Source: Patescibacteria group bacterium
GTDB lineage: Bacteria; Patescibacteriota; Microgenomatia; UBA8517
DNA: 64,000 nucleotides
Reading direction: 5' to 3'
Assembly (NCBI GenBank): GCA_035291665.1
Contig: DATDRP010000001.1
Coordinates: forward strand, 146,952 to 210,951
Of the stretch, positions 9,765-53,674 are shown in pieces. How positions within the stretch are numbered: the stretch's first letter is position 1; each line of letters opens with the position of its first letter. Both the position numbers and the translations under genes were made by a program. The notes beneath the pieces are model-generated. The model worked only from the letters and a program-made list of their open reading frames with translations, had not been told where the DNA came from and did not search any database.

Positions 9765-9842
9765 ATAATGTGTTTTTTTTGATTTTCCTTCAAAGGAGGA
9801 TGACATACCGTGCCCGCCGGCAGGCAGGTCAGAGTTCAATTC

Positions 9843-9872
9843 ATCCCCGATTAAATCGGGGTTTTCTTGAAC
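9843..9872 (+). terminator. intrinsic terminator after the pilin gene block
   Basis: CATCCCCGATTAAATCGGGGTTTTCTT: GC stem (CCCCGA/TCGGGG) followed by a U-tract. Confidence 0.5.
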
Positions 9873-9933
9873 GCTGTTATAAATGCAATTGACCTTGTAG
9901 ACTTGTTCTTGCTACACTTGAAAATAAGTAATT

Positions 9934-30970: not shown

Positions 30971-31000
30971 CCCAGTAAGATTCATTTTAATAAGAAGAGT

Positions 31001-37754: not shown

Positions 37755-38666
37755 TTATACTAATGAAGTCAGGAAATCAAGCGCTTTTCTTCTTTGCAGT
37801 ATGACTCTGATCACAGATCTTTGTTCGGGAGTTTCTCCACTATTTTTCAGATTGGGGTCTGAATGGCTTGCCTTGATTGCCTCGTCTATGTCTTTATCAT
37901 CAACATTTAATGATTCATTTTTAGCTATTTTTTCCAGTATAAGTTCGAGTCTTATAGCTTTCTCGGATTGATCTTTATAATCACTTCGTATTGATTGTGC
38001 GGTTTTTCCGATTGAATTGAGGTATGAATCTAGTGTTAGACCCAATTTTTCGGTCTGTTCAAGAAGCTTTGATAATCTTGTGTTTACTTCTTCATCAATA
38101 AGAACGGTTGGGACAATAAAATTTATTGTTTTAAGTAAAATATTTATAACTTTTTGTTCTTTTTCCTGACGGGAAAGCCCTTTATCGTCAACGTCCTTAT
38201 TTTTTCCGGGAGTCCATATTTTACCTGAAGCGAGTTCGGTTTTAATGGGATCCTTATAGTTCCCCAATTCAAATTCCGTTATTTGACAAGTTGTCGCACG
38301 GATTTGCCACGTTTCATTTTGTTGTGCGTTAATGAGTTCGAATTTAGGAAAAACAGCCGGTCGGATTTTTTCTGACATAATGACTTCGTTAAACATTTGA
38401 GGCAATAGTCCCGAAAGCGTCTGTTGAATTAATTTATCCCTGGATACCGCCGATTCAATTTTATCAAGCGGGGCTTTTCCTTTTCTGAATCCGGCGATTT
38501 CAAGATCTTTACCCAATTCATGAAGAGCTTTTGTTTTATTTTCTTCAACCGTCTTCCAGGGTATATTGAATGTAATTTGAATCGTTCCGTCATCCTGTTT
38601 GGCTACAATCGGTTTAAAATCCTGATTTACGGACTTTTTCTGATTTTTTATGTTTGTTTTTGCCAT
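37755..38666 (-). CDS. tig: trigger factor (short form)
   Basis: Ribosome-binding signature GFRKGKAP in the N-domain; 303 aa, shorter than canonical ~430 aa. Confidence 0.75.
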   Translation of the reverse strand: MAKTNIKNQKKSVNQDFKPIVAKQDDGTIQITFNIPWKTVEENKTKALHELGKDLEIAGFRKGKAPLDKIESAVSRDKLIQQTLSGLLPQMFNEVIMSEKIRPAVFPKFELINAQQNETWQIRATTCQITEFELGNYKDPIKTELASGKIWTPGKNKDVDDKGLSRQEKEQKVINILLKTINFIVPTVLIDEEVNTRLSKLLEQTEKLGLTLDSYLNSIGKTAQSIRSDYKDQSEKAIRLELILEKIAKNESLNVDDKDIDEAIKASHSDPNLKNSGETPEQRSVIRVILQRRKALDFLTSLV

Positions 38667-38735
38667 AAATTATTACTATATACCGCGCTATAACAGATTT
38701 CAAGAAAACTACGTTCAGTTTACATAAACGTAGAT

Positions 38736-38803
38736 GAATTGAATTCTGATATGTCATCCTCCTTTCGAGGAAACCCCGCTCGCAAGAGTGGGGAGGATGT
38801 CAT
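38736..38803 (+). repeat. structured REP-like repeat, copy 1
   Basis: GAATTGAATTCTGATATGTCATCCTCC-[CCCCGCUC-GCAA-GAGUGGGG hairpin]-GGAGGATGTCAT; arms ATGTCATCCTCC/GGAGGATGTCAT form a ~12-bp outer stem. Confidence 0.7.
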
Positions 38804-39011
38804 TATACATAAATAAAGTCTGATTTGATACAAACAGCTATCCTTTATGCTGTGTTCTGAAGACTCCCGTTGCCGGTTTAAGATTTTTTGCGCTATACGA
38901 CGGGTTTTGAGAACCAAAGCGGCTGAATTGCTGCTTCGGCAAAGGTTGATACGAATTCAACTTTTTTACGGGATCTGAGGATGATTTTTGAGATTGGGTT
39001 ACCATAAAATG

Positions 39012-39350
39012 TTATCCTTTTGAGAGTTTGGAAAGAAAAGTTGAAACCAATGTCAAAACTATAGAAGAAATGACAGCCGTTAGGAAATTGTTGATAGTAA
39101 AACCTGGAACAATATAGGCTACTACCCAGAGCAAGGCAACATTTATCAAAAAAGCTGTAATTCCGAGAGTTACGATTGATAAAGGCAGTAAAAGTATTTG
39201 GATAATAGGACGGATAAATGTATTAACTACACCTATCACGATAGCGGTAACTATTGCTGCCCAAATTGTATCGAAGAGAAATCCGGGAATAAGATACGAA
39301 ACAATCAATAAAGTAAAAACATTGATAATAATTTTCATTAGTAATTTCAT
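39012..39350 (-). CDS. DUF360-family membrane protein (phage holin 4-like superfamily)
   Basis: MKLLMKIIINVFTLLIVSYLIPGF...GVVNTFIRPIIQILLLPLSIVTLG...; start trimmed from the track's 39410 because the extra 20 codons are the translated repeat copy 2. Confidence 0.6.
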   Translation of the reverse strand: MKLLMKIIINVFTLLIVSYLIPGFLFDTIWAAIVTAIVIGVVNTFIRPIIQILLLPLSIVTLGITAFLINVALLWVVAYIVPGFTINNFLTAVISSIVLTLVSTFLSKLSKG

Positions 39351-39389
39351 AGCAATTTCAAGGAAACCGTGGGCTTTCAGCCAACGGAG

Positions 39390-39456
39390 GAATTGAATTT
39401 GATATGTCATCCTCCCTCACGGGAAACCACGGACTATGGTCTGTGGAGGATGTCAT
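39390..39456 (+). repeat. structured REP-like repeat, copy 2
   Basis: GAATTGAATTTGATATGTCATCCTCC-[CCACGGAC-uaug-GUCUGUGG hairpin]-GGAGGATGTCAT. Confidence 0.7.
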
Positions 39457-39515
39457 GATTTTATTATAATAGAAAGGTGTAAGTTTTTAAACTAATGTAT
39501 ATAAATCAGGCTGAA

Positions 39516-40550
39516 TTACTGTTTATTTGCGTTGAAAAATTCCAGCGATCTTTCTGCGACTGTATTCCAGGATGGACGCATGTCATGGTCTGATCCCGGA
39601 TATTTATGGTAATCAACTTCTTTTTCAATTTTCTTAAGTTTTTTTGAAAAAGTATCACTCCAGGCAACAGGGACCGCATCATCTGCCGTTCCCTGATGGA
39701 GCTGGATTTTAGCCTGGATCCGATCAAGATATTTGTCGAGTGAGAATTTATCTGAATCATTCATAGTTTCGAATTTAGATAGTTCAGACCGAATAAGTTT
39801 TCCTCCGTCGGGTGATTCATCTGTGTAATAAAGAACAGAATACGGGAAAGGTTTTGTGACAGGAGCCCACAATACGGTTGGATAGGCTTTTTGCGAGGCT
39901 TCGAGGGCGGTTATAGCAATTTGTCCACCGTTTGAATGTCCCCAGATGAAAATATTTTTACCGTCCCAACTGTCAATCTGACCCTCCTCAATACTTTTTA
40001 AAAGTGAAAGGATTGTGATATATGATTGAAAACGCGATTCAAAAATATTTGAAGATTCGGAATCAGAGTTTGCGTATCCCAAGAAATCCGGTGCAATGGT
40101 TATGAAACCATTGTTGGCAAGGAATGTACCGAAATTATAACTACCCATGCCTGTTTTATATATATTTTGATCAACGTATCCTCGGATCAAAATAACAATC
40201 GGATATTTATTTACTTCATAGTCTGAAGGAAGATTTAGTAGCCCGGAAGTCGTTTTATATTCCCCATCCTTTGCGGGTGAAAACGTAAATTTGAATACAT
40301 ATGGTAGAAACTTTTCTTCAGGGGGCAGTTTATCTGCAATTGAAAAATGGGCTCGTTTCAAATTCTCGTTTAATTTTTCAATTTCATATTTCTCAAAAAT
40401 ATTTTCAGGAGTTACATTTACACTTTTTTTTATTAAGCCTTCTATTTGTGAGGGATTTTTTCTGGAACCAAAATGATAACCAAAAAGAAATATCAATAAA
40501 ATAAATCCGGCCATCAATATCGAAATTAATAATTTATTCACAATTCGCAT
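39516..40550 (-). CDS. alpha/beta-hydrolase (S9 peptidase/esterase-like), membrane-anchored
   Basis: N-terminal TM; nucleophile elbow IWGHSNGGQIA (GxSxG); Asp/His-containing C-terminal region. Confidence 0.7.
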   Translation of the reverse strand: MRIVNKLLISILMAGFILLIFLFGYHFGSRKNPSQIEGLIKKSVNVTPENIFEKYEIEKLNENLKRAHFSIADKLPPEEKFLPYVFKFTFSPAKDGEYKTTSGLLNLPSDYEVNKYPIVILIRGYVDQNIYKTGMGSYNFGTFLANNGFITIAPDFLGYANSDSESSNIFESRFQSYITILSLLKSIEEGQIDSWDGKNIFIWGHSNGGQIAITALEASQKAYPTVLWAPVTKPFPYSVLYYTDESPDGGKLIRSELSKFETMNDSDKFSLDKYLDRIQAKIQLHQGTADDAVPVAWSDTFSKKLKKIEKEVDYHKYPGSDHDMRPSWNTVAERSLEFFNANKQ

Positions 40551-40640
40551 CCTTATTTTAGAACAAAGTTCAAATTACTTCACGAATATCCGGATATCTT
40601 CAAAACTAAGTATAGTAACATTAGAAAAATTTAATTAAAA

Positions 40641-41222
40641 TTGTGGAAAGGTTTTATCATGAAAAAAATTTTAGTATTAACTTTTCTTGCTTTGTTGGTT
40701 TTTGTTATATATTACTTCTTTTTCAGAAATTCTCAGGATTTTGAAGTAAATGTGGGAAATCAGATATTTCCTGTAAGCGAATTTGTATATACCAAAGATA
40801 ATGAAAAAATTCAGCAAATATTATTAACCAATCTGCCGACAAAAATCATTACGACAGACAGAGGAAAAGTATTTTGTTCAACAAAAGTTTTTGATTCTCT
40901 TTATGATAAAAAAACCGATTTAATAAATACCTATATTTGGGCTTATTGTAACGAATTCTTCCTTAACGATACCGATATTATGAAAGGATATTCATACAAC
41001 AACCCGGCTCTGGTAAAGTTATCGCACAATGGCGATGCATATGACATTGCTGAAGTAATTAGAATTGATAACGGCTCTGATCGTAATTTATGGATTATTG
41101 AAAATTTTCCGAAACAACTTTCCGAAAACTTTAGTTTTGATTTCGACTTCAAGAGCTTGAATCCGAGTCCTGAAATTCAGGCTAATAATTATTATAAAGG
41201 TATACTTGAAGCTTATTTTTGA
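40641..41222 (+). CDS. hypothetical secreted/membrane-anchored protein
   Basis: Signal/TM MKKILVLTFLALLVFVIYYFFF; probable true start at 40659. Confidence 0.5.
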   Translation: MWKGFIMKKILVLTFLALLVFVIYYFFFRNSQDFEVNVGNQIFPVSEFVYTKDNEKIQQILLTNLPTKIITTDRGKVFCSTKVFDSLYDKKTDLINTYIWAYCNEFFLNDTDIMKGYSYNNPALVKLSHNGDAYDIAEVIRIDNGSDRNLWIIENFPKQLSENFSFDFDFKSLNPSPEIQANNYYKGILEAYF

Positions 41223-41491
41223 ACCTTTTTACTTTTATCACTTAATAATTTTGTAACCTTTTTCAATTTATCGGAGCTTAAGATTTTAGCGTCCCTGATT
41301 TTTTCTATAATTTCGTCGAGTTCCTTTTTACCGAGTTTTTCAAGACTTTTTACTTTTTTGCTGAGTGCTCTCCTGGTCTTTTTGTTGGATAGCGCAACAC
41401 CTACTCCGACAGCAGCTGCTGAAACCAAAGCTGCAGAAATAGCTTTTTTACCTATTTTAAGTTTTTTCTTTTTTTGAGGCATCTTTCTCAC
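41213..41491 (-). CDS. YtxH-like small membrane protein
   Basis: Basic N-terminus, TM AISAALVSAAAVGVGVAL, charged coiled-coil tail. Confidence 0.4.
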   Translation of the reverse strand: MRKMPQKKKKLKIGKKAISAALVSAAAVGVGVALSNKKTRRALSKKVKSLEKLGKKELDEIIEKIRDAKILSSDKLKKVTKLLSDKSKKVQK

Positions 41492-41729
41492 CCCCCTCTT
41501 CGGCAGATATAAAATTTTTCAGTTTCGTAAAAAATTCTTCAAGAACGTCCAATATTTTAAGTTTAATTTCTTCTTTATCTTTAGATAATAAATCTAATTG
41601 TATATCGATTTTTATTAATAATTTTTTAAGGATAAGGACTGATTGGGTGAGAACAATGATGAAAATAATCATAAAAATTATTACCATCGAAACCCCCAAC
41701 ACTAATAAAATTAATAAAACGTCGTTCAT
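41457..41729 (-). CDS. DUF948-like small membrane protein
   Basis: N-terminal TM LLILLVLGVSMVIIFMIIFIIVL plus coiled coil; adjacent to the YtxH-like gene as in the Firmicute ytxG/ytxH pair. Confidence 0.35.
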   Translation of the reverse strand: MNDVLLILLVLGVSMVIIFMIIFIIVLTQSVLILKKLLIKIDIQLDLLSKDKEEIKLKILDVLEEFFTKLKNFISAEEGGEKDASKKEKT

Positions 41730-41810
41730 AAAAGGTTATCTATCGCCCCGATTAAATTAGGAAGGCAATAATCGAGCATAATTAAACTGGGCAAAAAATT
41801 AATAATAATG

Positions 41811-43205
41811 TTATAAGTTTTTTATCAATGTAAAAAGACTAAAGCCTCCGTATAAAAATATACCTCCTAAAATCATAGCACGTCTAAAAGTTGTTGGCCT
41901 GATTGCATACGGTAGTGATTTTGTATTCAATATGTAAAGCATCACGGAATAGAAAAACATTGTTATAGCATTAAGAACCGCTCCGGTAATCACCAGTTTC
42001 AATGGTTCATTAAATCCCAAAAGCATGATTACTATTCCGGCAAGGATCTGAAACCATAAAAATAAATAGAAATATTTTGATAATTTATTAACGCTGAATT
42101 TTTTCGGAGATGCGAGGACAAGATTTTCCGACATAATTCTTGCAGTAGACGCAAACACGGAAAATTGTGTCCCAAATAGCATCAAAGCTGCAACAAGTAC
42201 AAATGCAGTTCCAACAAATAAAGTCGTTTTTTCAGATATAAAGGAAGATTCACGCAATAAAAAATTAATACCGTTTTCGATACCAGGTGCTTTATAGGCT
42301 GTTGAGTAAGCCAATAGTGAGAGCATGAGCATTGTTAAAAGTCCGGTTCCCCAAAAGACTACAAGATGTTCGAGATTTATTCTTTTCCACCAGAGTCTGA
42401 ATAATTTTAGATTTTCGATACTTTGTCGGAAAAGAGATCCGGTTAAGCTTAATTTTTCAGTCTTTTTGGAAAATAAAGCCGTAATTTTCCCCGAATATTT
42501 TCCCATACCATAACCTTTTTCCTTAACGTAATAAGATTGGGCTAAGTTTAGATTGCCTCCGGCTCCGGCATATGCAAGGGCGCCTAAAAAAGTTGCCATC
42601 ACAATCCCTTCAGGTAGAAAAATAAATCCCTCGCCGATCCCAAAAATACCTTTCCCTAAAGACAGCCAATCAGTTGGTTTTGCCAATATAAATGTCAGAA
42701 GCAAAACAAACGGTATACCGATAAAAATTATTGATTTTTGAAATTTCTCCTGAGTTTTATAAAGGTATGATCCCGAACTTAAGATTGCACCGATTAATAT
42801 AAGCAATATTATCGGGAACGTAATATTATATTTAAGTCCGAATGCGGCTGTAAAAAGCTTTGCCGATGTAGCAATAATTCCCGGCCAAATCCATGGGAGA
42901 AACGTTGATAATAAAAACCAATATGATGATAGTTTCCCGAACTTTCTCCGAAGACCTGTAAAAATGCTTTCACCGGTTGCCAGGGTATATCTTTCTATTT
43001 CCATATTCAGAAAAAATTGCATTGTAATTCCGAGAACTGCTCCCCATATTATGCCCAAACCATAATTTGAAGAAAGGTATGGCCACAAAATAAGCTCCCC
43101 GCTCCCTAATCCCAATCCCAAAAGAATAAAGCTCGGGCCGACTAATTTTGAAAACGGCAGCGGTTTGGGCAAATCGTGTTCGGAGATCTTCAAATCCTTA
43201 TCCAT
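41811..43205 (-). CDS. polytopic membrane transporter, NRAMP-like (divalent metal)
   Basis: ~11 TM segments; GPSFILLGLGLGSGELILWPY resembles the NRAMP TM1 (GPGFLMS...DPGN). Confidence 0.45.
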   Translation of the reverse strand: MDKDLKISEHDLPKPLPFSKLVGPSFILLGLGLGSGELILWPYLSSNYGLGIIWGAVLGITMQFFLNMEIERYTLATGESIFTGLRRKFGKLSSYWFLLSTFLPWIWPGIIATSAKLFTAAFGLKYNITFPIILLILIGAILSSGSYLYKTQEKFQKSIIFIGIPFVLLLTFILAKPTDWLSLGKGIFGIGEGFIFLPEGIVMATFLGALAYAGAGGNLNLAQSYYVKEKGYGMGKYSGKITALFSKKTEKLSLTGSLFRQSIENLKLFRLWWKRINLEHLVVFWGTGLLTMLMLSLLAYSTAYKAPGIENGINFLLRESSFISEKTTLFVGTAFVLVAALMLFGTQFSVFASTARIMSENLVLASPKKFSVNKLSKYFYLFLWFQILAGIVIMLLGFNEPLKLVITGAVLNAITMFFYSVMLYILNTKSLPYAIRPTTFRRAMILGGIFLYGGFSLFTLIKNL

Positions 43206-43287
43206 GAGTAGTTAATATTAGTATATTATTTTGTACTTTTGAAGTAAGTCAAAAAAAGCTTGCAGAGGAGATATAAAAAAACCTAAA

Positions 43288-43938
43288 TTATCTCGAAAAG
43301 ATTATTTGATGCTTGAATCCTGTATTTTGTTTTTCCTGAACTCCAACACCCTTACTCAAAATGTAATAATTACGCTTTTCGTTGGATGCCTGATACAAAG
43401 GTTTAAATTTAGTGCTTCCGATTATTGACAAAAACGTATCCGGATCAAAATGGCTGATATACATTTGGATATTTTCAACAAAAGAAACAACTTGGTCTTT
43501 TGCTCCCATCGGATGGCTAAGAAGAAGTTTACCTCCGTCGTTAAGAGAATTATGAAATAAATCCAAGAGGTTTTTATGATATTCTCTTTGGATATTTTCT
43601 ATACTGTGAAGGCAAACTATTCCGTCGTATTTTTGGTTGTTTTTAAGAATTTCGAGGATGTTGCCTTCCAAAAATAAGGTTGACGGGTAAATTCTTCTGG
43701 CGATTTCCAGTTGGTTTTTCGAAATATCGACTCCTGTTACATTATGGTTTTTATTCAAAAAATATGAAATTACTGGCTGTCCTGTTCCACATCCTGCATC
43801 AAGAATATGGGAATTTCTGCCGAGAAGTTTTTCAAATTTACTAAGATATTCTATTTCTTCAGATAAATCACGATGGCCAAAATTTCTTTTTGCATATTCA
43901 TCCCAACCGATTCTTACCAAGTTTGCCTTATCATACAT
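43288..43938 (-). CDS. class I SAM-dependent methyltransferase
   Basis: ILDAGCGTGQPVISYF...VTGVDISKNQLEIARR. Confidence 0.8.
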   Translation of the reverse strand: MYDKANLVRIGWDEYAKRNFGHRDLSEEIEYLSKFEKLLGRNSHILDAGCGTGQPVISYFLNKNHNVTGVDISKNQLEIARRIYPSTLFLEGNILEILKNNQKYDGIVCLHSIENIQREYHKNLLDLFHNSLNDGGKLLLSHPMGAKDQVVSFVENIQMYISHFDPDTFLSIIGSTKFKPLYQASNEKRNYYILSKGVGVQEKQNTGFKHQIIFSR

Positions 43939-44014
43939 ATTATAGGTTATTATAAACCATTCGGATGTTTATTCAAAGTAAAAGAGTCATGACTCTGGAA
44001 TTAAAAGATCCAAC

Positions 44015-44159
44015 TTGACTTCGGGTAATATTCGGGATAGAGTGAAATAGATTGGAAGAGTGTAAGAGTAGAAGAGTGTAAGCAAAACTTAAGACAAATG
44101 TCAAAAGAAATCTCAACTTTTACTCTCCCCGCTCTTATACTCTTTTACTCTAATTTGCC
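44015..44159 (+). promoter_or_regulatory. R1: promoter/operator element built from AAGAGTNN 8-mer arrays
   Basis: TTGACT(44015-20)...ATTCGGGATAGAGTGAAATAG; direct 8-mers GAAGAGTGTAAGAGTAGAAGAGTGTAAG (44054-44083); spacer with ACTTAAG; inverted copies TTTTACTCTCCCCGCTCTTATACTCTTTTACTCTA (44119-44152) ending 8 nt before the ATG. Homologous to R2. Confidence 0.55.
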
Positions 44160-44420
44160 ATGCTTGATAAAATTTCTCTTCCCGTATCAGTCAGCCTTAT
44201 TTTTGACAGTACCAAGCGCAGTGTCTATCCGAAGTCTCTTGTCTGGAACGGACGAAAGTACCCAATTTTGAAGATTGGCCTGCATCATACATATCGAACC
44301 GGAAAGGTCCTTTTCCATGTGTTTAGTGTAGCCAGCGACACGCTTTTCTTCCGGTTGGTGCTTAACACAGAAACACTGCACTGGCGGCTTGAAGAAATTG
44401 CGGACAGCTTTACCGATTAA
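44160..44420 (+). CDS. hypothetical small protein (86 aa) under the R1 element
   Basis: MLDKISLPVSVSLIFDSTKRSVYPKSLVWNGRKYPILKIGLHHTYRTG...; preferred over the antisense ORF 44187..44426 because of upstream R1 homology to the dinB promoter. Confidence 0.4.
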   Translation: MLDKISLPVSVSLIFDSTKRSVYPKSLVWNGRKYPILKIGLHHTYRTGKVLFHVFSVASDTLFFRLVLNTETLHWRLEEIADSFTD

Positions 44421-44913
44421 ATGCATTTTAATACCCGACCTGCATTCTGATTAAAGCTACAATGGCGGCGAATAGGACTATCACTAAAACGAAATATATT
44501 TTGTTCATCTGAAATAATTTTACAACACAAATCAAGTGTTTATTTTAAAATAGCTATTTATCTATATCTTAGGAGTCTTATGGTTTGAATTAATTCGGAA
44601 TTTTACGCTGATTGAAGTTGCTAATTTTTAATTCATGCTGAATTCTTGCATTCGTACCCGGTTTATCTTTCTGATTCTGCGATAATAGACCTGATGGTTT
44701 TATTCTTATCGTGGATATTCTGAACGGTAATCGGGTTTTTTTCTGCGAAGCTGAAAATTCATATTTCATTTCTGGTGCCATAGTGAAATTACATCAATTG
44801 TTAAGATCGGTTTCAACTCTTGAAAAGTAAACAATATGTAGGTTAGGATGTAAAGTTGGCGGGAGGGTTATAACAGTTTCGAGAAAACCGCGTCTTTTAA
44901 GATAGGGAGGATA

Positions 44914-45705
44914 TCATAGCGTATAAGTATTAATTAGTTTTTTTTCAGTTTCTTTGGCTACAACAGCCTTAACTTCAACAAATTTTTCTATCCTTGATTT
45001 TTTAAGTTTGCTTTTTAAGAGTTCATCTATTTGAAATATTCCGGCAGAATTATTAAGCGTGATGAAAATCTGGATAATTTTTTTTGATCCTTTTTTTATT
45101 TCCACTTTATCAATAGCTGCAGCAGAAATAGCATAAATATCTTTCTCGCCTTTTTCATATGGTATTCGGGATCTGCCTTCGCTCATATCCAGGGCGTCTG
45201 CAACCCGGACTATTCCAGCTTCAATTGTATTGGGAATACCGTTTTTACGATGACTGATGATTGCATGTAAGACTTCTGACGAAATGATGACCCTTTCCCT
45301 TGTTGGTAAAAAGGTGAGAATTTCATGAAGCAAATTGTTTGACAGAAATAAACTATACTCCTCATGACCTTCGCGGTTTATGCTCATTCCAAGATCGTGC
45401 ATGATACTTGTCAAAAAAACGACCAGCTCCGCATGGTGATAAGACAATCCGAAATCTTTTACAATGCTCATTTCTACGTTTGCTTCAGATAGCATTCTGG
45501 ACAACCTTAAAGCAATATTGGAAACAATCTGGAAGTGAACAGGACCGTGATCGCTCATCCCCAACCTGTCAATCGCGTTGACATTAATAACGTCCCAAAG
45601 TGCATATATCTCATCATTTTGATTGATTTTCTCCAAACACATCTCAAGGAGTTTGTTTCCTTTTGTCGGAACATGTATTTTGACTGTACCTTTTTTATTT
45701 TTCAT
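44914..45705 (-). CDS. HD-domain metal-dependent phosphohydrolase
   Basis: His/Asp-containing HD motifs: DHGPVHFQIVSNIALRL ... IMHDLGMSI. Confidence 0.7.
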   Translation of the reverse strand: MKNKKGTVKIHVPTKGNKLLEMCLEKINQNDEIYALWDVINVNAIDRLGMSDHGPVHFQIVSNIALRLSRMLSEANVEMSIVKDFGLSYHHAELVVFLTSIMHDLGMSINREGHEEYSLFLSNNLLHEILTFLPTRERVIISSEVLHAIISHRKNGIPNTIEAGIVRVADALDMSEGRSRIPYEKGEKDIYAISAAAIDKVEIKKGSKKIIQIFITLNNSAGIFQIDELLKSKLKKSRIEKFVEVKAVVAKETEKKLINTYTL

Positions 45706-45864
45706 CTAAAGAATTTTCTTGGATTTTTCTGTTCGGATTTATGCCTTCCATAGAATACGTTTGAGGCGAATGGTATTTTAGCATTTTGGTAGTAATTGCG
45801 CCATAAAAAAGGAAATTTAGCTATAGCAGCGTTCAAGAGAACCCCGGACTTCCAGTCCGGGGGT

Positions 45865-45932
45865 GAATTGAACTCTGATATGTCATCCTCCTCTAAAGGA
45901 AACTCCGTCTTTTAAGGCGGAGAGGATGTCAT
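45865..45932 (+). repeat. structured REP-like repeat, copy 3
   Basis: GAATTGAACTCTGATATGTCATCCTCC-[CUCCGUC-uuuuaa-GGCGGAG hairpin]-GAGGATGTCAT. A degenerate fourth copy (3' half only: ...CCGCGTCTTTTAAGATAGGGAGGATATCAT) is at ~44866-44916. Confidence 0.7.
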
Positions 45933-49220: not shown

Positions 49221-49360
49221 ATCTTTTCGTTAATTACTTCATACAGATTGGATTTGTGCCAAATCAAACCCGGTTAAACAAGATTGACTTGGTGCCGGGA
49301 AGAGGACTTGTCATGGCAAAGCAAGATCCTGCTTTGCAGGAAACCTCCAACCAAAAGCTG

Positions 49361-49445
49361 TGCCGAGAGAGGGAGTTGAACCCACACGTCTTATAAAGAC
49401 ACAGGATCCTAAATCCTGCGCGTCTGCCAATTCCGCCATCCCGGC
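49361..49445 (-). tRNA. tRNA-Leu (anticodon TAG), type II
   Basis: Reverse complement folds: acceptor GCCGGGA/TCTCGGC, anticodon stem-loop CAGGA-TTTAGGA-TCCTG, long variable arm, T-loop TTCAACT. Confidence 0.8.
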
Positions 49446-49611
49446 TTATACAACTTCACTATTATATCAATACTAAAGTTTTTCCCAAAAAAAAGAGGCG
49501 CACCTTGGGGTACACCTCATAAAAAAATCCTAACGCCCATCTAATCTATAGGATTAGTAAGCCTCAGAATCTAGAGATACTATAACATAAGACTATAAGT
49601 ATGTCAATATA

Positions 49612-50364
49612 TTACTTCTTGCTTGCTAATATGAATAATGAAGGACCAAATCTTGTTTTAGAAAACATCCTTTGTAGATATTTTTCAAGATACAATAAAA
49701 TCTCAACGGGAAGTAGTTTTTTAAGAATTACGCTTCGTATATTGGACACGGATTTGATGTCAATTATGCGGAAACCGTTATTTTCCAAATGATTAAGGAC
49801 ATCATCCGGATGATAATTAAAAAAATCTATACAACCTGTATTAATAGATTTTTTACTCCGAATGTCTTTTGGAAATATATCAAGTAAAAAAGTCAAATTC
49901 CCATGACGCAATTCATTAAGAGCAGATTTAAAATGAAGTTTATTGGGAAATTCGAGAATCAGATGTCCATTATTTTTTAAAAGCCTGTTGATGATCCTGA
50001 ACGCATTGTCGAGATTTTTGACGTGATGCAACACTCGGATAAATAGAACCAGATCAACACTTGATGGCTTTATTTTTGTTTCTAAATTTTCTATTTTTGA
50101 ATGGATAAATTTAATTTTTTTGTTTTTGTATTTTTCTTTTGCTATGGAGAGTAATTTTGAAGAAGGGTCCGTGAGGTAAATTCGTTTGGCTCGGTGGATG
50201 TATGTGGGAATCAAACGCCCATACCCCGCGCCGATATCGGCAATGGTTCCGATAATTTTTAGTCTTTTGAAAAAATTTTCAAGTACAAAAACTTCTGACT
50301 TGTGTTCGTAGATTCTGGACTCCCAATATGATGGATAATCGAAATTATCGTAATGAGCAGACAT
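49612..50364 (-). CDS. class I SAM-dependent methyltransferase
   Basis: IADIGAGYGRLIPTY...RIYLTDPS; DLVLFIRVLHHV. Confidence 0.8.
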   Translation of the reverse strand: MSAHYDNFDYPSYWESRIYEHKSEVFVLENFFKRLKIIGTIADIGAGYGRLIPTYIHRAKRIYLTDPSSKLLSIAKEKYKNKKIKFIHSKIENLETKIKPSSVDLVLFIRVLHHVKNLDNAFRIINRLLKNNGHLILEFPNKLHFKSALNELRHGNLTFLLDIFPKDIRSKKSINTGCIDFFNYHPDDVLNHLENNGFRIIDIKSVSNIRSVILKKLLPVEILLYLEKYLQRMFSKTRFGPSLFILASKK

Positions 50365-50449
50365 ATTATGTGTATTGTAAGGATATATGATTGATGCAAA
50401 TTATGTCAAAAGTAATCATAGATAAGAAATATATTTGTGGCTGGAATTG

Positions 50450-51076
50450 CTATTCCATTTCAGACATGAAGCTTGAGACGCCCTCCGCCCAGCTCCCATT
50501 TGACAGAGGCGTATATTTTGTCATTATTTCTTCGGGTGTTGTGTAGCCTTCGTCCAAGTAATCATCCCGAATCCCCTTTGTTACAGTATTTATTCCTTCT
50601 TCAAATGAGGAAAAGCCGAGTGTTCCTCGACTGTGGATTCCCCACCCCCAGCAGTTGAATGTTCCTTCCGGATAGGCTTTACAAAGATTTGATTCCTGCT
50701 GGGCAATGGCAGTAACCAGTCTGAAATCTACATCGTATTTATCTGCCGTATTTACAATATAAAAAGAATACGGTTCCAGAATTGAATCATATCTTTGAAG
50801 ATATGATTTAACTATCTCCCCTCTTGCATCCGATTCTACCGGATAGCCATTTATGGTTTGTGCTGATGGAGGAAGTGAAGAAAAAATACGAATATTTTGT
50901 GAATTATCACCCAGTACAGAAGGTTTTTTTTCACTCGAAATGTTTAAAAGGGCGTATAAAGATAAAGCAATAACTACTGGTGTTATGAGAAAAAACATTG
51001 AAGCTGTTATAAGACTATTGATATAAGATAATCCCCTGAGGTGCTTAAAATTAAATATAGGCATTTCAAATATCAT
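50450..51076 (-). CDS. membrane-anchored lytic transglycosylase-like peptidoglycan hydrolase
   Basis: N-terminal TM; LVTAIAQQESNLCKAYPEGTFNCWGWGIHS resembles the SLT-domain catalytic ES motif. Confidence 0.5.
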   Translation of the reverse strand: MIFEMPIFNFKHLRGLSYINSLITASMFFLITPVVIALSLYALLNISSEKKPSVLGDNSQNIRIFSSLPPSAQTINGYPVESDARGEIVKSYLQRYDSILEPYSFYIVNTADKYDVDFRLVTAIAQQESNLCKAYPEGTFNCWGWGIHSRGTLGFSSFEEGINTVTKGIRDDYLDEGYTTPEEIMTKYTPLSNGSWAEGVSSFMSEME

Positions 51077-51301
51077 ATCAAAAATAAATAATTATTAATA
51101 ACGATAATGAAGTGTTGGAGGTTTTCAATTGTTGATATACCGGAAGGAATCGGTGATTTGATGTAAAGAAAATCAGCTTATTACCGAAGCAATCTTCTTT
51201 ATTAAAATATTAAATTATATGTGAGCTTGGAAGGATTCGACCAAGTACAACTTGGGTTCATTCCTGAAATCGCTTCCTGAATTCAATTTTGATTTTTGAG
51301 G

Positions 51302-51373
51302 TGATCCCGGAAGGAATCGAACCTTCGACCATCTCCTTAAGAGGGAGTTGCTCTACCGCTGAGCTACGGGACC
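51302..51373 (-). tRNA. tRNA-Lys (anticodon CTT)
   Basis: Reverse complement: GGTCCCG-TA-GCTC...CTCTTAA anticodon loop...GAAGG-TTCGATT-CCTTC-CGGGATC-A. Confidence 0.75.
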
Positions 51374-51386
51374 ATACTCCTCAGTA

Positions 51387-52640
51387 TTATAATTTCCGAA
51401 ACATTAAAATGCCAATATGACCGGGATCGATCCTCGTAAAGAGCGGGTATCCGATTTCGGCATCGATATCATAGCCTTCTATCTTTACAATATACAGATT
51501 ATCCATTTCCCAAATCATCTGACCGGTATTTTTCAGAATCGAAAGTTGGTAAGTCTTATCGTCTTTTTGAATCAAGTCGGGAGTAAGCTCGGCCACCATA
51601 GTTGCAGAGTTAATTCTTTTGGGATTACCGGATTTTTTTAGCATTTTTTGAATTTCCGAGTAAAAATCATAAAAGCTTCCATCAGCCTTTTTGAATGAGA
51701 AAGTATTGAAAGGTTCACTCTGATAATTCAACATGAATGGGGTTACCGCCACTATATTTGGATCTTTTAACCATTTTTCAAATGCCTGTGTATAGTATTT
51801 TTTCAAAACATCAACAGACAAAAATTTATTTTCACCCCCCACATCGTGCGTCCAGCCTGTTTCGGTTATAAATATGGGTAAATTCTTTTTAACGCTCAAG
51901 GTTTTTATAAATTCAATTTCGTTAATATAACCCGTAATACTAACAATCCCCGTTTTATCGGGGCTTTCGGAAAAATTCGGATTTGGATATGAGTGTGAAG
52001 TCCACCCGTCGATATGGTCAAAAATATCAGGAACTTTATCGTGCATTGACTTAATAAAATTTGTTTCGCTCATATGCGTTTTGTTGTTGGGAGAAGATGC
52101 ATCTAATCCTGCTGGAAGAACAAAAAAATCATCATCTTTTCTTTTAAGTTGTATTGAAAATTCTTTTAAGAATTCAGCATAACCTTGAGGATCAATTACA
52201 CCTCCCCATTCAGCTGCATGATTCGGTTCATTACCAACCACAACATACCTATTTTGAGTGACCCAATTAAGAGAGTCCAGGAAATTTACCCAGCCATCAA
52301 TATCGTCAGTTGTCGGTTTCAACCAGCCTGAACCCTCTTGTTTCGTAGCTATTCTTATAATCGGAATAAGATGAAGTTCCCGCATCCGGTCAAAAACATT
52401 CTGCCACCTGTTTACATCCCTCTCATCTGATCTTAGTACCATAGTCACATACCCCCATTCGCCACCGGAAGAATTCACCAACTTTGCAGCATCGATTAGA
52501 TCGTTTTCATCCTGAATATGGATACCGAAAATGTTATTTTCCGTCGAATGCGGATTAGTTACAGCAAAAGTTGATTTATATGATTTAAAAAATATTAGAG
52601 CAGCTGCAATTAATATTATTAATTTGTAAAATTTTTTCAT
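51387..52640 (-). CDS. secreted glycoside hydrolase (GH5/GH53-like TIM barrel)
   Basis: Signal peptide MKKFYKLIILIAAALIFF; catalytic-like motifs VVGNEPN (acid/base) and ITETGW (nucleophile). The track's 110-codon N-extension to 52970 is antisense to the tRNA-Leu genes and was trimmed. Confidence 0.65.
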   Translation of the reverse strand: MKKFYKLIILIAAALIFFKSYKSTFAVTNPHSTENNIFGIHIQDENDLIDAAKLVNSSGGEWGYVTMVLRSDERDVNRWQNVFDRMRELHLIPIIRIATKQEGSGWLKPTTDDIDGWVNFLDSLNWVTQNRYVVVGNEPNHAAEWGGVIDPQGYAEFLKEFSIQLKRKDDDFFVLPAGLDASSPNNKTHMSETNFIKSMHDKVPDIFDHIDGWTSHSYPNPNFSESPDKTGIVSITGYINEIEFIKTLSVKKNLPIFITETGWTHDVGGENKFLSVDVLKKYYTQAFEKWLKDPNIVAVTPFMLNYQSEPFNTFSFKKADGSFYDFYSEIQKMLKKSGNPKRINSATMVAELTPDLIQKDDKTYQLSILKNTGQMIWEMDNLYIVKIEGYDIDAEIGYPLFTRIDPGHIGILMFRKL

Positions 52641-52745
52641 ATTAACCATTATACAAAATCCAAAAGATATAAGGGCGTTATGTAATAAATTCCAACTGTA
52701 TTTGGTATAATACAGGTGAAGTTTTGCCCTTGTGGCGGAATTGGC

Positions 52746-52830
52746 AGACGCGCAGCGTTCAGAACGCTGTCTCGATTTCCGAGGTAGGGGTTCAAATCCT
52801 CTCAAGGGCACTCGATAAACTCGTGCTCCT
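52746..52830 (+). tRNA. tRNA-Leu (anticodon CAG), type II
   Basis: GCCCTTG...CAGCG-TTCAGAA-CGCTG...long variable arm...TTCAAAT...CAAGGGC-A. Confidence 0.85.
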
Positions 52831-52903
52831 GTTCGGGTTTGATAGTGCGAATTAAGGTAGATATTATGCACACAAATCCTCTCAAGGGCACCGTTATTTA
52901 TAC

Positions 52904-52985
52904 GCGCGGGTGGCGAAATTGGTAGACGCGCAGTCTTGAGGAGGCTGTGGAGTAATCCTTGCAGGTTCAAGTCCTGTCCCGCGCA
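52904..52985 (+). tRNA. tRNA-Leu (anticodon GAG), type II
   Basis: GCGCGGG...CAGTC-TTGAGGA-GGCTG...TTCAAGT...CCCGCGC-A. Confidence 0.85.
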
Positions 52986-53155
52986 CTAATACAAAATGAC
53001 GAAAACTTTCGTTGTTTTGTTTTAACGGATAGGAATTGAACCGAAGGTCATGGGTGAGCGAAAGCGAATCCCTGGATACCCTTGTGGTATTCAAGTCCTG
53101 TCCCGCGCACTAAATCGGTCGCTTGGCTCAGTTGGTCAGAGCATCTCGTTTATAA

Positions 53156-53229
53156 GGATCTATAGCTCAGTTGGTCAGAGCGTTCGGTTTACATCCGAAA
53201 GGTCGTAGGTTCGAACCCTACTAGATCCA
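53156..53229 (+). tRNA. tRNA-Val (anticodon TAC)
   Basis: GGATCTA-TA-GCTC-AGTTGGTCA-GAGC-G-TTCGG-TTTACAT-CCGAA...GTAGG-TTCGAAC-CCTAC-TAGATCC-A. Confidence 0.85.
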
Positions 53230-53372
53230 CATTATTATAGAAAGTCGGGGGAAATGACACCGAGTCTGACTCGGACGAATCCCTCAGCGACTACAAATAT
53301 GATAGAATTTGAAAGAAAATAGCCGAGGTACCCAAGTTTGTTATAAATGTTAAGAATTGGAGGTGACATAAA

Positions 53373-53585
53373 ATGGCAATACCAGAAAACAAGAGCAAAA
53401 TATTAAAAGTTAAGTATATTAGTTTCAGTATACTGCCAGGTCAAGAAATTAAAAGTTTTGAAGAACTTTCAAAATCTGAGCCAGGTACAAGCGTAATAGT
53501 TGAAGGTGGCGGAGATTTGGACTACCTATCTTCAGATTTACAGAATGTTAAAAAAACAAGTGAGGATGATACATCTCAGGGTTAA
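53373..53585 (+). CDS. hypothetical small acidic protein (70 aa) inside a duplicated tRNA-Phe 5' segment
   Basis: Strong SD GGAGGTGA 7 nt upstream; MAIPENKSKILKVKYISFSILPGQEIKSFEELSKSEPGTSVIVEGGGDLDYLSSDLQNVKKTSEDDTSQG; flanked by a tRNA-Phe 5' fragment (53322-53338) and intact tRNA-Phe. Confidence 0.5.
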   Translation: MAIPENKSKILKVKYISFSILPGQEIKSFEELSKSEPGTSVIVEGGGDLDYLSSDLQNVKKTSEDDTSQG

Positions 53586-53594
53586 ATATTATAA

Positions 53595-53667
53595 GCCGAG
53601 GTAGCCAAGTTGGTCACGGCGGGCGCCTGAAGAGCGTCAGATTCGGGTTCGATTCCTGACCTCGGCA
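53595..53667 (+). tRNA. tRNA-Phe (anticodon GAA)
   Basis: GCCGAGG...GGCGC-CTGAAGA-GCGTC...TCGGG-TTCGATT-CCTGA-CCTCGGC-A. Confidence 0.8.
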
Positions 53668-53674
53668 CATTTAC

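What the first reader, a model, noticed from the sequence alone, without database searches (positions are those of the whole stretch)
38736..45932. Family of ~68-nt structured REP-like repeats flanking two genes
Three full copies (38736-38803, 39390-39456, 45865-45932) and one degenerate copy (~44866-44916) share the same layout. A 5' motif GAATTGAAYTYTGATATGTCATCCTCC is followed by a 6-nt spacer, GGAAAC(C), and a variable internal hairpin (one with a GCAA tetraloop), then GGAGGATGTCAT. The two arms pair into a ~12-bp outer stem.
- The internal hairpins differ in sequence but keep their base-pairing, which suggests selection on structure.
- All copies lie on the + strand. Pairs of copies bracket the DUF360 membrane-protein gene and the HD-phosphohydrolase gene, resembling REP/MITE-like elements or small mobilisable cassettes.
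- Their translation creates spurious ORF extensions (MTYQIQF...).
Basis: seen in the sequence. Interest (0 to 1): 0.55.

Follow-up and report, generated by a model that had tools for sequence, protein, structure and literature searches.

The report
Miniature IS200/IS605 transposon ends (PATEs)
The repeats are ~110-nt gene-less remnants (left end fused to right end) of a TnpB-carrying IS200/IS605 transposon that litter the genomes of Woesebacteria-like ultrasmall bacteria; this is a known kind of selfish DNA, notable here because copies also sit in-frame inside essential genes.

Summary
The repeats are real, but each unit is about 110-115 nt rather than 68. The window holds five copies: three full on the + strand, one internally deleted chimera, and one truncated copy on the - strand at 9.8 kb.

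Each unit has two hairpin domains. Scans found more than 180 copies in more than 170 loci from Woesebacteria/Microgenomates MAGs and groundwater metagenomes. Every helix covaries (97% of cells paired; 0 of 500 shuffles reach the observed value).

Orientation relative to neighbouring genes is mixed. There is no target-site duplication and no real terminal inverted repeat.

Full-length relatives (L078, L157) carry domain A, then a tnpB gene, then domain B. The domain-B module GGAAWC-hairpin-GAGGATGTCA also ends annotated tnpB genes on Acinetobacter, Streptomyces and Klebsiella plasmids. An in-silico deletion between two (A/T)TTGAAC repeats recreates the mini-element.

The repeats are therefore PATEs: fused left and right ends of a tnpB-only IS200/IS605-family element. 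They are presumably moved in trans by a Y1 TnpA, which was found in one related locus but not in the window.

Copies also lie in-frame inside housekeeping genes (Dtd, ArgRS, MurC, Fmt, UppP, a P-type ATPase). A clean occupied-versus-empty comparison shows a 108-nt insertion in Dtd.

Verdict: a new family of a known kind.

The parts
38689..38803 (+). Full mini-element, copy 1. The first TAT may belong to the target motif. Domain A (left end) spans 38689-38750 with hairpin A at 38709-38733. Domain B (right end) spans 38751-38803 with hairpin B at 38774-38793 (GCAA loop).
   Evidence: Model R1 E = 2.8e-12 and model R2 E = 3.5e-20.
39348..39456 (+). Full mini-element, copy 2. Its reverse strand supplies the false ATG (39410) that extends the DUF360/Phage_holin_4_2 ORF.
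   Evidence: R1 E = 8e-10; R2 E = 3e-17.
45822..45932 (+). Full mini-element, copy 3, in the divergent region between the HD gene (-) and dinB (+).
   Evidence: R1 E = 6e-14; R2 E = 1.2e-19. This was the query that matched tnpB 3' ends on plasmids.
44869..44917 (+). Internally deleted chimeric copy: TATAACAGTTTCGAGAAAAC (the 5' half of the left end), a decayed hairpin B, then GGAGGATATCAT (the right-end terminus).
   Evidence: family D11; R1 E = 0.038 across the whole stretch. The deletion lies between the two GAAAC-hairpin half-units.
9783..9881 (-). Truncated fifth copy. Domain A is intact, a GC-rich hairpin (cctgcctgccggcgggcacgg) is inserted at the CTGA|TATG junction, and domain B is cut off after GGAAAA.
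   Evidence: (R1 E = 3.4e-13).
39012..39352 (-). DUF360/Phage_holin_4_2 membrane-protein gene. The true start is probably near 39352. It is a neighbour of the element, not part of it.
   Evidence: the PF04020 match starts at residue 21 of the 132-aa ORF.
37755..38666 (-). Trigger factor gene, 23 nt from the left edge of copy 1. A neighbour only.
44914..45705 (-). HD-domain gene lying between the chimeric copy and copy 3. A neighbour only.

Best explanation
The repeats are PATEs (palindrome-associated transposable elements). They are gene-less miniature derivatives of a tnpB-only (IS1341-type) member of the IS200/IS605 family. Each consists of the transposon's left end (domain A) fused to its last ~55 nt (domain B, the right end with its 8-bp tetraloop hairpin).

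Shown here:
- Full-length elements have the order domain A - tnpB - domain B.
- The mini-element is colinear with a deletion between two (A/T)TTGAAC repeats, one at the end of the left end and one in the last codons of tnpB.
- Edges are sharp, there is no target-site duplication, and there is no real terminal inverted repeat.
- The left edge abuts a conserved (T/A)TTAT.
- Copies are polymorphic between relatives and include truncated, chimeric and nested forms.

Inferred, not shown:
- A Y1 (HUH) TnpA supplied in trans binds the two subterminal hairpins on one DNA strand while it is single-stranded.
- It cuts after the TTAT-type target motif and after ...GGATGTCAT, circularises the strand, and re-inserts it 3' of another TTAT-type motif ('peel-and-paste').
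- Because TnpA reads hairpin shape rather than stem sequence, the stems drift by compensatory change and by swapping of hairpin alleles.
- The right end derives from the tnpB C-terminal coding region and most copies are 105, 108 or 111 nt with one stop-free sense frame. Copies that land in genes can therefore persist as ~36-residue in-frame loops.
- Copies may also be transcribed as omega-RNA-like guides used by TnpB in trans. This was not tested.
For: 1. Family and structure. 97% of cells are paired, 20 of 36 pairs show double changes, and 0 of 500 shuffles reach the observed values, against 35-46% pairing in the slid controls. The outer stem of domain B covaries in a set ascertained on domain A only.

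2. Not a cis-regulatory element. Orientation relative to neighbours is mixed.

3. Transposon ends. There is no target-site duplication. The left flank is W-T-T-A-T then AACAG, and the right edge is GGATGTCAT followed by W-A.

4. Link to tnpB. Hairpin B plus the 3' arm matches the extreme 3' end of annotated tnpB genes on Acinetobacter, Streptomyces and Klebsiella plasmids, on the same strand; in Streptomyces a Y1 tnpA is adjacent. L078 and L157 carry domain A, a 384-391-aa ORF with OrfB_IS605, Cas12f1-like_TNB and HTH_OrfB_IS605 domains, then GGATAC-hairpin-GAGGATGTCAT. L122 has the left end plus a broken tnpB. In-silico deletion products align colinearly with mini-elements.

5. A possible mobiliser. 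A classical 128-aa IS200 TnpA in L139 (PF01797, E = 1e-26) is flanked on both sides by CCACGGCTTTAGCCGTGG. That hairpin class is used in the family's alternative 3' module and resembles several hairpin-A alleles.

6. Mobility. The occupied Dtd (L019 and P0121) carries exactly 36 extra residues (108 nt) compared with 145-aa homologs that are 80% identical. One genome (LBWP01) has at least 15 near-identical copies. The same subfamily occurs at non-syntenic sites in different genomes.

7. In-frame gene residence, with Pfam domains on both sides of the insert: P-type ATPase, MurC, ArgRS, a GT4 transferase, Dtd, Fmt, a Mur ligase, UppP and a RimK-like protein.

8. The literature definitions match: PATE features and origin by repeat-mediated core deletion (PMC3119063); trans mobilisation and PATE-encoded omega-RNAs (PMC10055086); the 8-bp tetraloop hairpin at the right end, in HgcC and in a transcribed PATE RNA (PMC4615843).
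Against: - No tnpA or tnpB lies in the window, and I could not scan the rest of the source genome. A mobiliser in this organism is therefore not shown.
- The only classical TnpA found (L139) is linked to the alternative 3' module, not to the canonical domain B.
- The five RAYT-like Y1 proteins found near copies are flanked by unrelated hairpins.
- Hairpin stems differ between copies within one genome, more than is usual for ends read by a single TnpA.
- The plasmid matches are short (35-37 nt, E = 6e-4). They become convincing only together with L078 and L157.
- The strong outer stems (P1a, P1b) have no assigned role in the textbook TnpA mechanism, and P1b is weaker in the full-length element.
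- Five independent assemblies of this population are 100% identical across all four + strand copies, so there is no sign of current activity.
- The exact boundaries and the TTAT-type target motif rest on one 80%-identity empty site plus flank statistics.
Confidence: 0.85

Rival explanations
1. The copies are primarily functional RNA genes. They would be orphan omega-RNA-like guides, or other small RNAs, whose fold is selected at the RNA level and which serve TnpB or the host in trans. This is not exclusive of a PATE origin.
For: There is strong covariation in every helix, including outer stems with no known role in transposition. Domain B corresponds to the terminal part of the tnpB-overlapping RNA region, and there is a weak HgcC hit exactly there in L078 (E = 0.88). 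The literature reports that PATEs often encode omega-RNAs and that a fused left-end/right-end PATE RNA is transcribed and has a phenotype.
Against: Only the last ~55 nt of the tnpB-proximal region is retained, less than typical omega-RNA scaffolds (that comparison is from my own knowledge). There is no conserved promoter. There is no strand-of-folding signal (G.U 27 vs A.C 18, p = 0.23). There is no Rfam match at E <= 10 for the window copies. Many copies are truncated, chimeric or inside coding sequence. No expression data were available.
Confidence: 0.25
2. A selfish palindromic repeat unrelated to any insertion sequence, of the Rickettsia palindromic element (RPE) or BOX type, with an unknown means of spreading.
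For: It sits in-frame in housekeeping genes, mostly in sense orientation. It has a modular build with optional and tandem internal modules and nested insertions. These are the traits of RPE and BOX elements summarised in PMC10969869.
Against: The two halves are demonstrably the left and right ends of tnpB-carrying elements. The right-end module is shared with annotated IS200/IS605 elements. The RPE-like behaviour is therefore a property of this PATE family rather than a separate explanation.
Confidence: 0.05
3. A cis-acting RNA element of the flanking genes: a leader, riboswitch, RNase site, terminator or promoter cassette.
For: Copies are intergenic in the window and always antisense to the nearest minus-strand genes. 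On the antisense strand, the hairpin-A complement is followed by GTTTTCTTGAA, and two such sites are flagged as terminator-like. The left-end complement also reads CTGTTATAA(T), which resembles an extended -10.
Against: Across about 180 copies the orientation to neighbours is mixed. Copies lie inside coding sequences. Terminator-like sites in the region are not above shuffle expectation (5 against 6.3). There is no association with any particular gene family.
Confidence: 0.03
4. Recombination sites (attC-like) that bracket mobilisable gene cassettes.
For: Pairs of copies flank DUF360 and HD in the window. In L032, partial elements flank a Nudix gene. The structure is conserved while the sequence varies, as in attC sites.
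Against: No integrase was found and there is no regular array. The flanked neighbourhood includes core genes. The ends carry no R'/R'' core-site logic. The element's homology to transposon ends explains the structure. Partial copies next to genes are what recombination between dispersed repeats would produce.
Confidence: 0.01
5. In-gene copies are intervening sequences removed from the mRNA, or bypassed by the ribosome, rather than translated.
For: The RNA fold is compact and stable, and Patescibacteria are rich in introns (literature listing).
Against: Every interior in-gene copy keeps the host frame open with no stop, and every one measured is a multiple of 3 in length. No gene was found split by a stop or frameshift at a copy. 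At ~110 nt the element is far below group I or group II intron size, and no ribozyme family matched.
Confidence: 0.03

Closest known systems
PATEs (palindrome-associated transposable elements) of haloarchaea, and the PATE-like elements of Geobacillus stearothermophilus (PMC3119063; PMC10055086)
   Same: No transposase gene. Near-terminal palindromes. No target duplication and no true inverted terminal repeats. Ends homologous to IS605-type (IS1341/tnpB) transposons. Origin by deletion between short direct repeats. The terminus-to-palindrome distance is longer at the 5' end than at the 3' end. Other small repeats are found inserted into them. Both homogeneous bursts and heterogeneous old copies occur.
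   Different: The host is a CPR/Patescibacteria lineage (Woesebacteria-like), for which I found no such report. The sequence family is different. Each end is wrapped in an additional covarying outer stem, and domain B forms a three-way junction. Hairpin alleles are reshuffled between copies. Copies are frequently in-frame inside essential genes and are biased toward lengths of 3n.
IS200/IS605-family insertion sequences carrying tnpB (IS1341 type; e.g. IS608, ISDra2)
   Same: The left and right ends carry subterminal hairpins on the same strand. Insertion is next to a short conserved motif. There is no duplication. The tnpB 3' end overlaps the right-end hairpin, and the GGAAWC-hairpin-GAGGATGTCA module is shared with plasmid-borne copies.
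   Different: The window copies have lost the whole tnpB core, so they cannot encode any protein of their own.
Rickettsia palindromic elements (RPEs)
   Same: Palindromic repeats of ~100-150 nt that sit in-frame in unrelated housekeeping genes, add a peptide loop, and also occur between genes.
   Different: There is no sequence relationship. RPEs have no identified parent transposon, whereas here the parent IS is identified. The hosts are unrelated.
REP/REPIN elements mobilised by RAYT
   Same: Short, structured, intergenic repeats tied to HUH-Y1 enzymes. The hairpin matters more than the stem sequence.
   Different: REPs are single ~35-nt palindromes with a conserved 5' tetranucleotide and flank their RAYT gene. 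Here the unit is a fusion of left and right ends, and the RAYT-like genes found nearby have unrelated flanking hairpins.
HgcC RNA (Rfam RF00062) and sotRNA / omega-RNA regions at tnpB 3' ends
   Same: An 8-bp stem with a tetraloop just inside the right end. There is a weak positional HgcC hit on the full-length element.
   Different: The hit is far below the gathering score (15.7 against 50 bits). The window copies give no Rfam hit at all.

Membership tests
PATE (as defined in PMC3119063) | Too short to encode a transposase | tested here: met
   The element is 105-115 nt. The only ORFs over it are read-through or spurious.
PATE | Near-terminal palindromes at both ends | tested here: met
   Hairpin A lies ~21 nt from the left edge and hairpin B ~10 nt from the right edge. 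Both covary.
PATE | No target-site duplication | tested here: met
   Flank profiles of 43 copies show no direct repeat. The Dtd occupied and empty alleles agree.
PATE | No inverted terminal repeats | tested here: inconclusive
   There is only a weak 9-nt resemblance: TTATAACAG against the reverse complement of ATGTCATAA, 7 of 9 positions. Part of it may be the target motif.
PATE | Ends homologous to those of an IS605-type transposon, with origin by core deletion | tested here: met
   L078 and L157 have left end - tnpB - right end. In-silico deletion products are colinear with mini-elements. The right-end module is shared with annotated tnpB 3' ends.
PATE | Insertion polymorphism between related genomes | tested here: met
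   The 108-nt insert in Dtd is absent from homologs that are 80% identical. No polymorphism was seen among five assemblies of the window population.
IS200/IS605 family | Mobilisation by a Y1 (HUH) TnpA through a single-stranded DNA intermediate | not testable with these tools
   A classical TnpA exists in a related locus (L139), but none is in the window. Activity on these ends is untested.
IS200/IS605 family | Insertion immediately 3' of a conserved 4-5-nt target motif that abuts the left end | tested here: inconclusive
   The left flank is W-T(39/43)-T(41/43)-A-T before AACAG. Removing AACAG...GTCAT from Dtd restores a frame of the right length. However, window copies 1 and 3 have GCTAT, and no high-identity empty site was available.
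TnpB omega-RNA / Rfam HgcC (RF00062) | A match to the family covariance model at its gathering score | tested here: not met
   The window copies give no hit at E <= 10. The right end of L078 scores 15.7 bits against a gathering score of 50.
Rickettsia palindromic elements | In-frame residence in unrelated housekeeping genes, with an element-encoded peptide | tested here: met
   This is a resemblance in behaviour only; sequence or phylogenetic membership is not claimed.
REP/REPIN-RAYT | Repeats flank a cognate RAYT gene in inverted orientation and share its hairpin | tested here: not met
   Five RAYT-like Y1_Tnp genes in the loci are flanked by different hairpins.
Integron attC / gene cassette | Regular cassette array with an integrase and conserved core sites | tested here: not met
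   No integrase was found among neighbours. Spacing and orientation are irregular.
Known self-cleaving ribozymes / other Rfam families | Covariance-model match | tested here: not met

The most novel reading that the evidence does not exclude
This PATE family has been shaped by lineage-level selection to be frame-neutral: 3n in length, with one stop-free sense frame inherited from the tnpB C-terminus. That would let an IS200/IS605 derivative colonise essential genes of genome-reduced CPR bacteria and add ~36-residue loops to their proteins. It would be an independent recurrence of the Rickettsia 'protein-coding palindrome' phenomenon, this time with an identifiable transposition machinery. In addition, the intergenic copies would act as orphan omega-RNA genes that program TnpB in trans.
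Probability: 0.3. Interest if true: 0.65.

Novelty: new member of a known kind. Interest (0 to 1): 0.45.

Why it matters
It explains a conspicuous repeat family in Woesebacteria-like genomes as transposon debris rather than a new regulatory RNA.

It will help annotation in several ways:
- false ORF extensions, such as the DUF360 start
- contig breaks at repeat edges
- 36-residue 'insertions' in ArgRS, MurC, Fmt, UppP, Dtd and similar proteins that could otherwise be read as lineage-specific protein features

It gives a worked example in which RPE-like in-frame selfish DNA can be tied to a defined transposon family. That suggests a route by which such elements arise.

It also points to CPR TnpB proteins with defined ends and a predicted TTAT-type adjacent motif. 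Those could be tested as compact RNA-guided nucleases.

Tried and rejected
1. Ribozyme readings (hammerhead, twister, pistol, hairpin). I checked the conserved cores by eye and they did not fit. Rfam gave nothing for the copies at gathering thresholds or at E <= 10.

2. A one-arm search pattern in viral contigs gave nine hits, all chance matches in coding sequence. L011, L012, L016 and L041 from the genome scan were also chance hits.

3. Plus-strand RNA folding inferred from G.U pairs in the three window copies did not generalise (27 vs 18, p = 0.23).

4. Synteny between the window and the fetched loci was too sparse to use.

5. Strain polymorphism: five assemblies carrying the identical trigger factor were 100% identical over 20.9 kb. 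The next homolog is only 60% identical, so no empty site was available for the window copies themselves.

6. The target-site duplication search found none.

7. The second pass gave RAYT-like Y1 proteins and small GIY-YIG nucleases, but their flanks are unrelated or they show no positional link.

8. L032 'domain A ... cargo ... domain B' turned out to be partial copies around a Nudix gene.

9. L039 as a gene split by the element turned out to be two different genes.

10. The promoter/terminator reading: site counts are not above shuffle expectation.

11. A phage-collection search for the region and for the element found nothing.

12. The RPE-only interpretation, which I held until, was superseded by the tnpB link.

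Full report
**The observation**

The 12-mer arms are strongly over-represented: GGAGGATGTCAT with up to 2 mismatches gives 15 matches against 3.8 +/- 2.0 in shuffles.

Reading further upstream showed that each copy is preceded by a second module, TATAACAG-CATTCAAGAAAAC-[hairpin]-GATGAATTGAAC. The real unit is therefore about 110-115 nt and has two domains.
- Domain A is an outer stem with one conserved mismatch, a 5x5 internal loop, and a variable hairpin A.

Whole-unit folds have z-scores of -3.6 to -5.2.

Covariance models built from each domain found a fifth copy in the window, on the minus strand at 9783-9881. It has an intact domain A, an extra GC hairpin at the A/B junction, and a truncated domain B. 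The models also showed that the 'degenerate' copy at 44869-44917 is a chimera of the 5' half of domain A with hairpin B and the 3' terminus.

The spurious ORF extension (MTYQIQF) is real. The Pfam match of the DUF360/Phage_holin_4_2 protein starts at residue 21.

**Context**

The window is a bacterial chromosome segment. It carries 15 scattered tRNA genes, a trigger factor without a PPIase domain, DinB, an Nramp transporter, type IV pilin-like genes and DUF5660. The trigger factor is annotated in public sources as coming from a Patescibacteria-group MAG. Neither the region nor the element matches phage records. Rfam gives only tRNAs at gathering thresholds and nothing for the copies at E <= 10.

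**The family**

A two-arm pattern scan of one genome per species returned 58 loci. 54 of them hold true copies, in Candidatus Woesebacteria, Microgenomates and Patescibacteria MAGs. Several MAGs labelled 'uncultured Gammaproteobacteria' also carry it. One of their proteins is named Candidatus Microgenomates by NCBI, so that label is probably wrong.

The conserved frame is tTTATAACAGCATTCAAGAAAAC-[hpA]-GATGAATTGAACGCTGATATGTCATCCTCC-[small hairpin]-GGAAAC-[hpB]-GGAGGATGTCAT(a/t)a.

On 44 full copies, 97% of cells are paired and 20 of 36 pairs show changes on both sides (183 cells). No shuffle out of 500 reaches the observed values, and slid controls pair at 35-46%. The outer stem of domain B was fixed by my first pattern. 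In the set ascertained on domain A only, it covaries in 5 of 8 pairs. That alignment was fitted to the model, which favours the structure.

G.U versus A.C counts give no strand signal (27 vs 18, p = 0.23). The hairpins occur as recurrent 'alleles' shared between genomes and combined in different A/B pairs.

One genome (LBWP01) has at least 15 nearly identical copies. It also has variants with extra modules at the A/B junction, among them one to three tandem 24-nt units, and a long hairpin inserted after GATGA. Solo domains and 5'-truncated copies occur as well.

**What it is not**

Orientation relative to flanking genes is mixed in both data sets:
- same/same 17, opp/same 11, same/opp 10, opp/opp 9
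- opp/opp 20, same/same 16, opp/same 14, same/opp 7

This rules out a conventional leader, riboswitch or terminator. Terminator-like and promoter-like sites in the region are not above shuffle expectation. No integrase or cassette logic was found.

**In-frame gene residence**

Clustering ORFs from the loci showed that many ORFs read straight through the element. Only one sense frame is open through the conserved core (...GDELNADMSSSF...). The other two sense frames hit TGA in GATGAATTGA.

Pfam confirmed real genes with domains on both sides of the insert:
- P-type ATPase (L058), MurC-type ligase (L038), arginyl-tRNA synthetase (L029), GT4 transferase (L061), D-Tyr-tRNA deacylase (L019)
- in the independent metagenome set: methionyl-tRNA formyltransferase (L111), a Mur ligase (L131), UppP/BacA (L174), a RimK-like ATP-grasp protein (L124) and others

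Deep interior cases are about 11-12 in sense orientation against 1-2 antisense. L057 is a probable antisense case, but it is cut off by the contig end.

For Dtd the insertion is explicit. Residues 1-115 and 146-180 align to PDB Dtd residues 1-115 and 110-144. Homologs that are 80% identical are 145 aa and lack exactly 36 residues. At the DNA level the empty alleles read TATGAATATTTT|GTTGATAAGC, and the occupied allele has 108 extra nucleotides.

An AlphaFold model of the occupied Dtd gives a moderately confident core (pLDDT 70-87) and a disordered insert (pLDDT ~30, residues 119-152) between two helices.

No gene was found split by a stop or frameshift at a copy.

**Edges**

Flank profiles of 43 copies show no target-site duplication. 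The left flank is W-T-T-A-T followed by AACAG. The right edge is GGATGTCAT followed by a weak W-A preference. Removing AACAG...GTCAT (108 nt) from the occupied Dtd restores E-Y-F-I-S-K-L-K, the same length as E-Y-F-V-D-K-L-K in homologs. This fits insertion 3' of a TTAT-type motif, but that is an inference.

**The origin**

A sensitive BLAST of copy 3 against plasmids matched hairpin B plus the 3' arm (35-37 nt, 89-91% identity). The matches fall at the extreme 3' end of genes annotated 'RNA-guided endonuclease TnpB family protein' in Acinetobacter, Streptomyces and Klebsiella, on the tnpB strand; in Streptomyces a Y1 tnpA lies next to it. The shared module is GGAAWC-[TCCGTC...GGCGGA]-GAGGATGTCA, and the tnpB stop codon sits in the hairpin loop.

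Searching the fetched CPR loci with those TnpB proteins found two homologs, in L078 and L157. They are 384 and 391 aa with OrfB_IS605, Cas12f1-like_TNB and HTH_OrfB_IS605 domains. In both, domain A lies immediately upstream of the tnpB start. The gene is followed by ...ACATTAAGGTTCATTGGATAC-[hairpin]-GAGGATGTCAT, which is the terminal half of domain B. L122 has the same left end with a broken tnpB.

The motif (A/T)TTGAAC ends the left end (GATGAATTGAAC) and recurs in the last tnpB codons (ATA TTT GAA CCT GCA TAG). Joining the two at that repeat in silico gives sequences colinear with real mini-elements over their whole length.

L139 carries a classical 128-aa IS200-type TnpA (PF01797, E = 1e-26). 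It is flanked on both sides by CCACGGCTTTAGCCGTGG. That is the hairpin used in the family's alternative 3' module, and it is close to several hairpin-A alleles.

**Comparison with the literature**

Dyall-Smith et al. define PATEs by these features (PMC3119063): no inverted terminal repeats, near-terminal palindromes, no target duplication, too short to encode a transposase, ends related to IS605-type transposons, origin by repeat-mediated core deletion, a longer terminus-to-palindrome distance at the 5' end, and frequent invasion by other small repeats. Every feature I could test is met.

Meers et al. describe PATE-like elements that are mobilised in trans by TnpA and that often encode omega-RNAs (PMC10055086).

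Gomes-Filho et al. describe the 8-bp tetraloop hairpin just inside the right end. They find it in tnpB-overlapping RNAs, in Rfam HgcC, and in a transcribed PATE RNA made of fused left and right ends (PMC4615843). In line with this, the only Rfam hit near the full-length right end is a sub-threshold HgcC match in exactly that position.

The geometry (about 21 nt from the left edge to hairpin A, about 10 nt from hairpin B to the right edge) also resembles IS608. Those IS608 figures come from my recollection of Ton-Hoang 2005 and Barabas 2008 and were not checked with the tools.

The in-frame behaviour parallels Rickettsia palindromic elements (PMC10969869).

**Mechanism: shown versus inferred**

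Shown:
- the anatomy and its covariation
- homology to the left and right ends of a tnpB-bearing IS200/IS605 element
- colinearity with a deletion product
- absence of target duplication
- insertion polymorphism
- in-frame residence in genes

Inferred:
- trans mobilisation by a Y1 TnpA acting on single-stranded DNA
- the TTAT-type target motif
- hairpin shape as the recognised feature, which would explain the compensatory drift

Untested:
- transcription of the copies and any use as omega-RNA
- translation of the in-gene copies

**Against the model**

- No tnpA or tnpB lies in the window.
- Five assemblies of the population are identical, so the window copies may be fossils.
- The outer stems have no assigned role in the known mechanism.

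**An open observation**

Element lengths are concentrated at 108, 105 and 111 nt. 74% of the copies that are not inside genes are multiples of 3. After collapsing to 37 clusters, 21 are still 3n (p ~ 0.004, not corrected for shared ancestry). This may reflect lineage-level selection for frame-neutrality, or inheritance from the tnpB coding frame.

**Verdict**

This is a real, abundant family of miniature IS200/IS605-derived elements (PATEs) in Woesebacteria-like CPR bacteria. It is a new member of a known kind. The unit size, the strand statement and the gene-cassette idea are not.

Noticed in passing
window 37755-38666 (-): The trigger factor is only 303 aa. It has Trigger_N and Trigger_C but no PPIase (FKBP) domain, and it scores below the NCBIfam tig cutoff. 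More than 100 homologs are likewise ~290-300 aa with only those two Pfam domains, so a PPIase-less trigger factor seems typical of this lineage.
   Followed up: partly
window 30633-30860 (+), between tRNA-Val (30506-30580) and tRNA-Ala (30897-30972): A small GIY-YIG nuclease-like ORF (tblastn E = 1e-17 to the L010 GIY-YIG protein) sits between two tRNA genes. Similar ~100-aa GIY-YIG genes recur in several element-bearing loci (L010, L025, L033, L055, L090). No positional link to the element was seen.
   Followed up: partly
window 49360-61841: There are 13 tRNA genes within ~12.5 kb, and 15 in the whole window, with different anticodons and mostly on the + strand. That is an unusually dense scatter for a chromosome segment.
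   Followed up: no
L140:1355-2119, L021:6878-7612, L061:3354-4040, L124:5255-5947 and 12871-13542: Five 225-255-aa Y1_Tnp (IS200-like/RAYT-like) proteins, longer than the classical TnpA. Each is flanked by its own distinct hairpins (e.g. CAAGGGTCACCCTTTAAAGGT, CAGGTTCCGAACCTG). They probably belong to a separate REP/RAYT-type system in the same bacteria.
   Followed up: partly
L032:5900-6010, L051, L090, L129, L130, L139:898-1010, L164, L175, L180: A second mini-element type joins domain A to a different 3' module (AGTTTCAAACTCGTCGAAGACG...AATACC-hairpin-GGTAGTTTAT). Its hairpin matches the one flanking the classical IS200 TnpA in L139.
   Followed up: partly
L059:1466-1586, L037, L044, L051, L063 (LBWP01); also L049, L083, L085, L128, L133, L067: Optional internal modules occur at the left-end/right-end junction: one to three tandem 24-nt units (TTGATAAAATCTTAAGCTTTGCTT), and a ~30-nt segment ending CCAAGCTYYGCTTA. 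The latter recurs across genomes and once lies inside the hairpin-A loop (L067). These could be nested small repeats or alternative deletion end-points.
   Followed up: no
L019, L021, L023, L024, L026, L028, L031, L034, L038, L040, L045, L049, L052, L054, L056, L062: MAGs deposited as 'uncultured Gammaproteobacteria' carry this CPR-specific element. One of their proteins (Dtd, P0121) is named Candidatus Microgenomates by NCBI, so the taxonomic label is probably wrong.
   Followed up: partly
window 38675-38733 and 45822-45862, minus strand: Read on the antisense strand, the left end gives a GC hairpin followed by GTTTTCTTGAA (terminator-like; two sites flagged) and then CTGTTATAA(T), which resembles an extended -10 box facing outward. 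Copies might therefore incidentally terminate or start transcription of neighbouring genes.
   Followed up: no
L071 (ends at window 38718), L072 (ends at window 38677): Two independent short assemblies of this population break at the left edge of copy 1, as expected for a dispersed repeat that fragments metagenome assemblies.
   Followed up: yes
all loci; element measured from AACAG to GTCAT: Element lengths cluster at 108, 105 and 111 nt. 74% of copies not inside genes are multiples of three, and 21 of 37 sequence clusters remain so (p ~ 0.004, uncorrected for shared ancestry).
   Followed up: partly
L038 (aa 276-314) and L131 (aa 247-285): Two different subfamilies of the element interrupt Mur ligases at a similar point, just after Mur_ligase_M profile position ~150. 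This may be a permissive loop or a preferred target.
   Followed up: no
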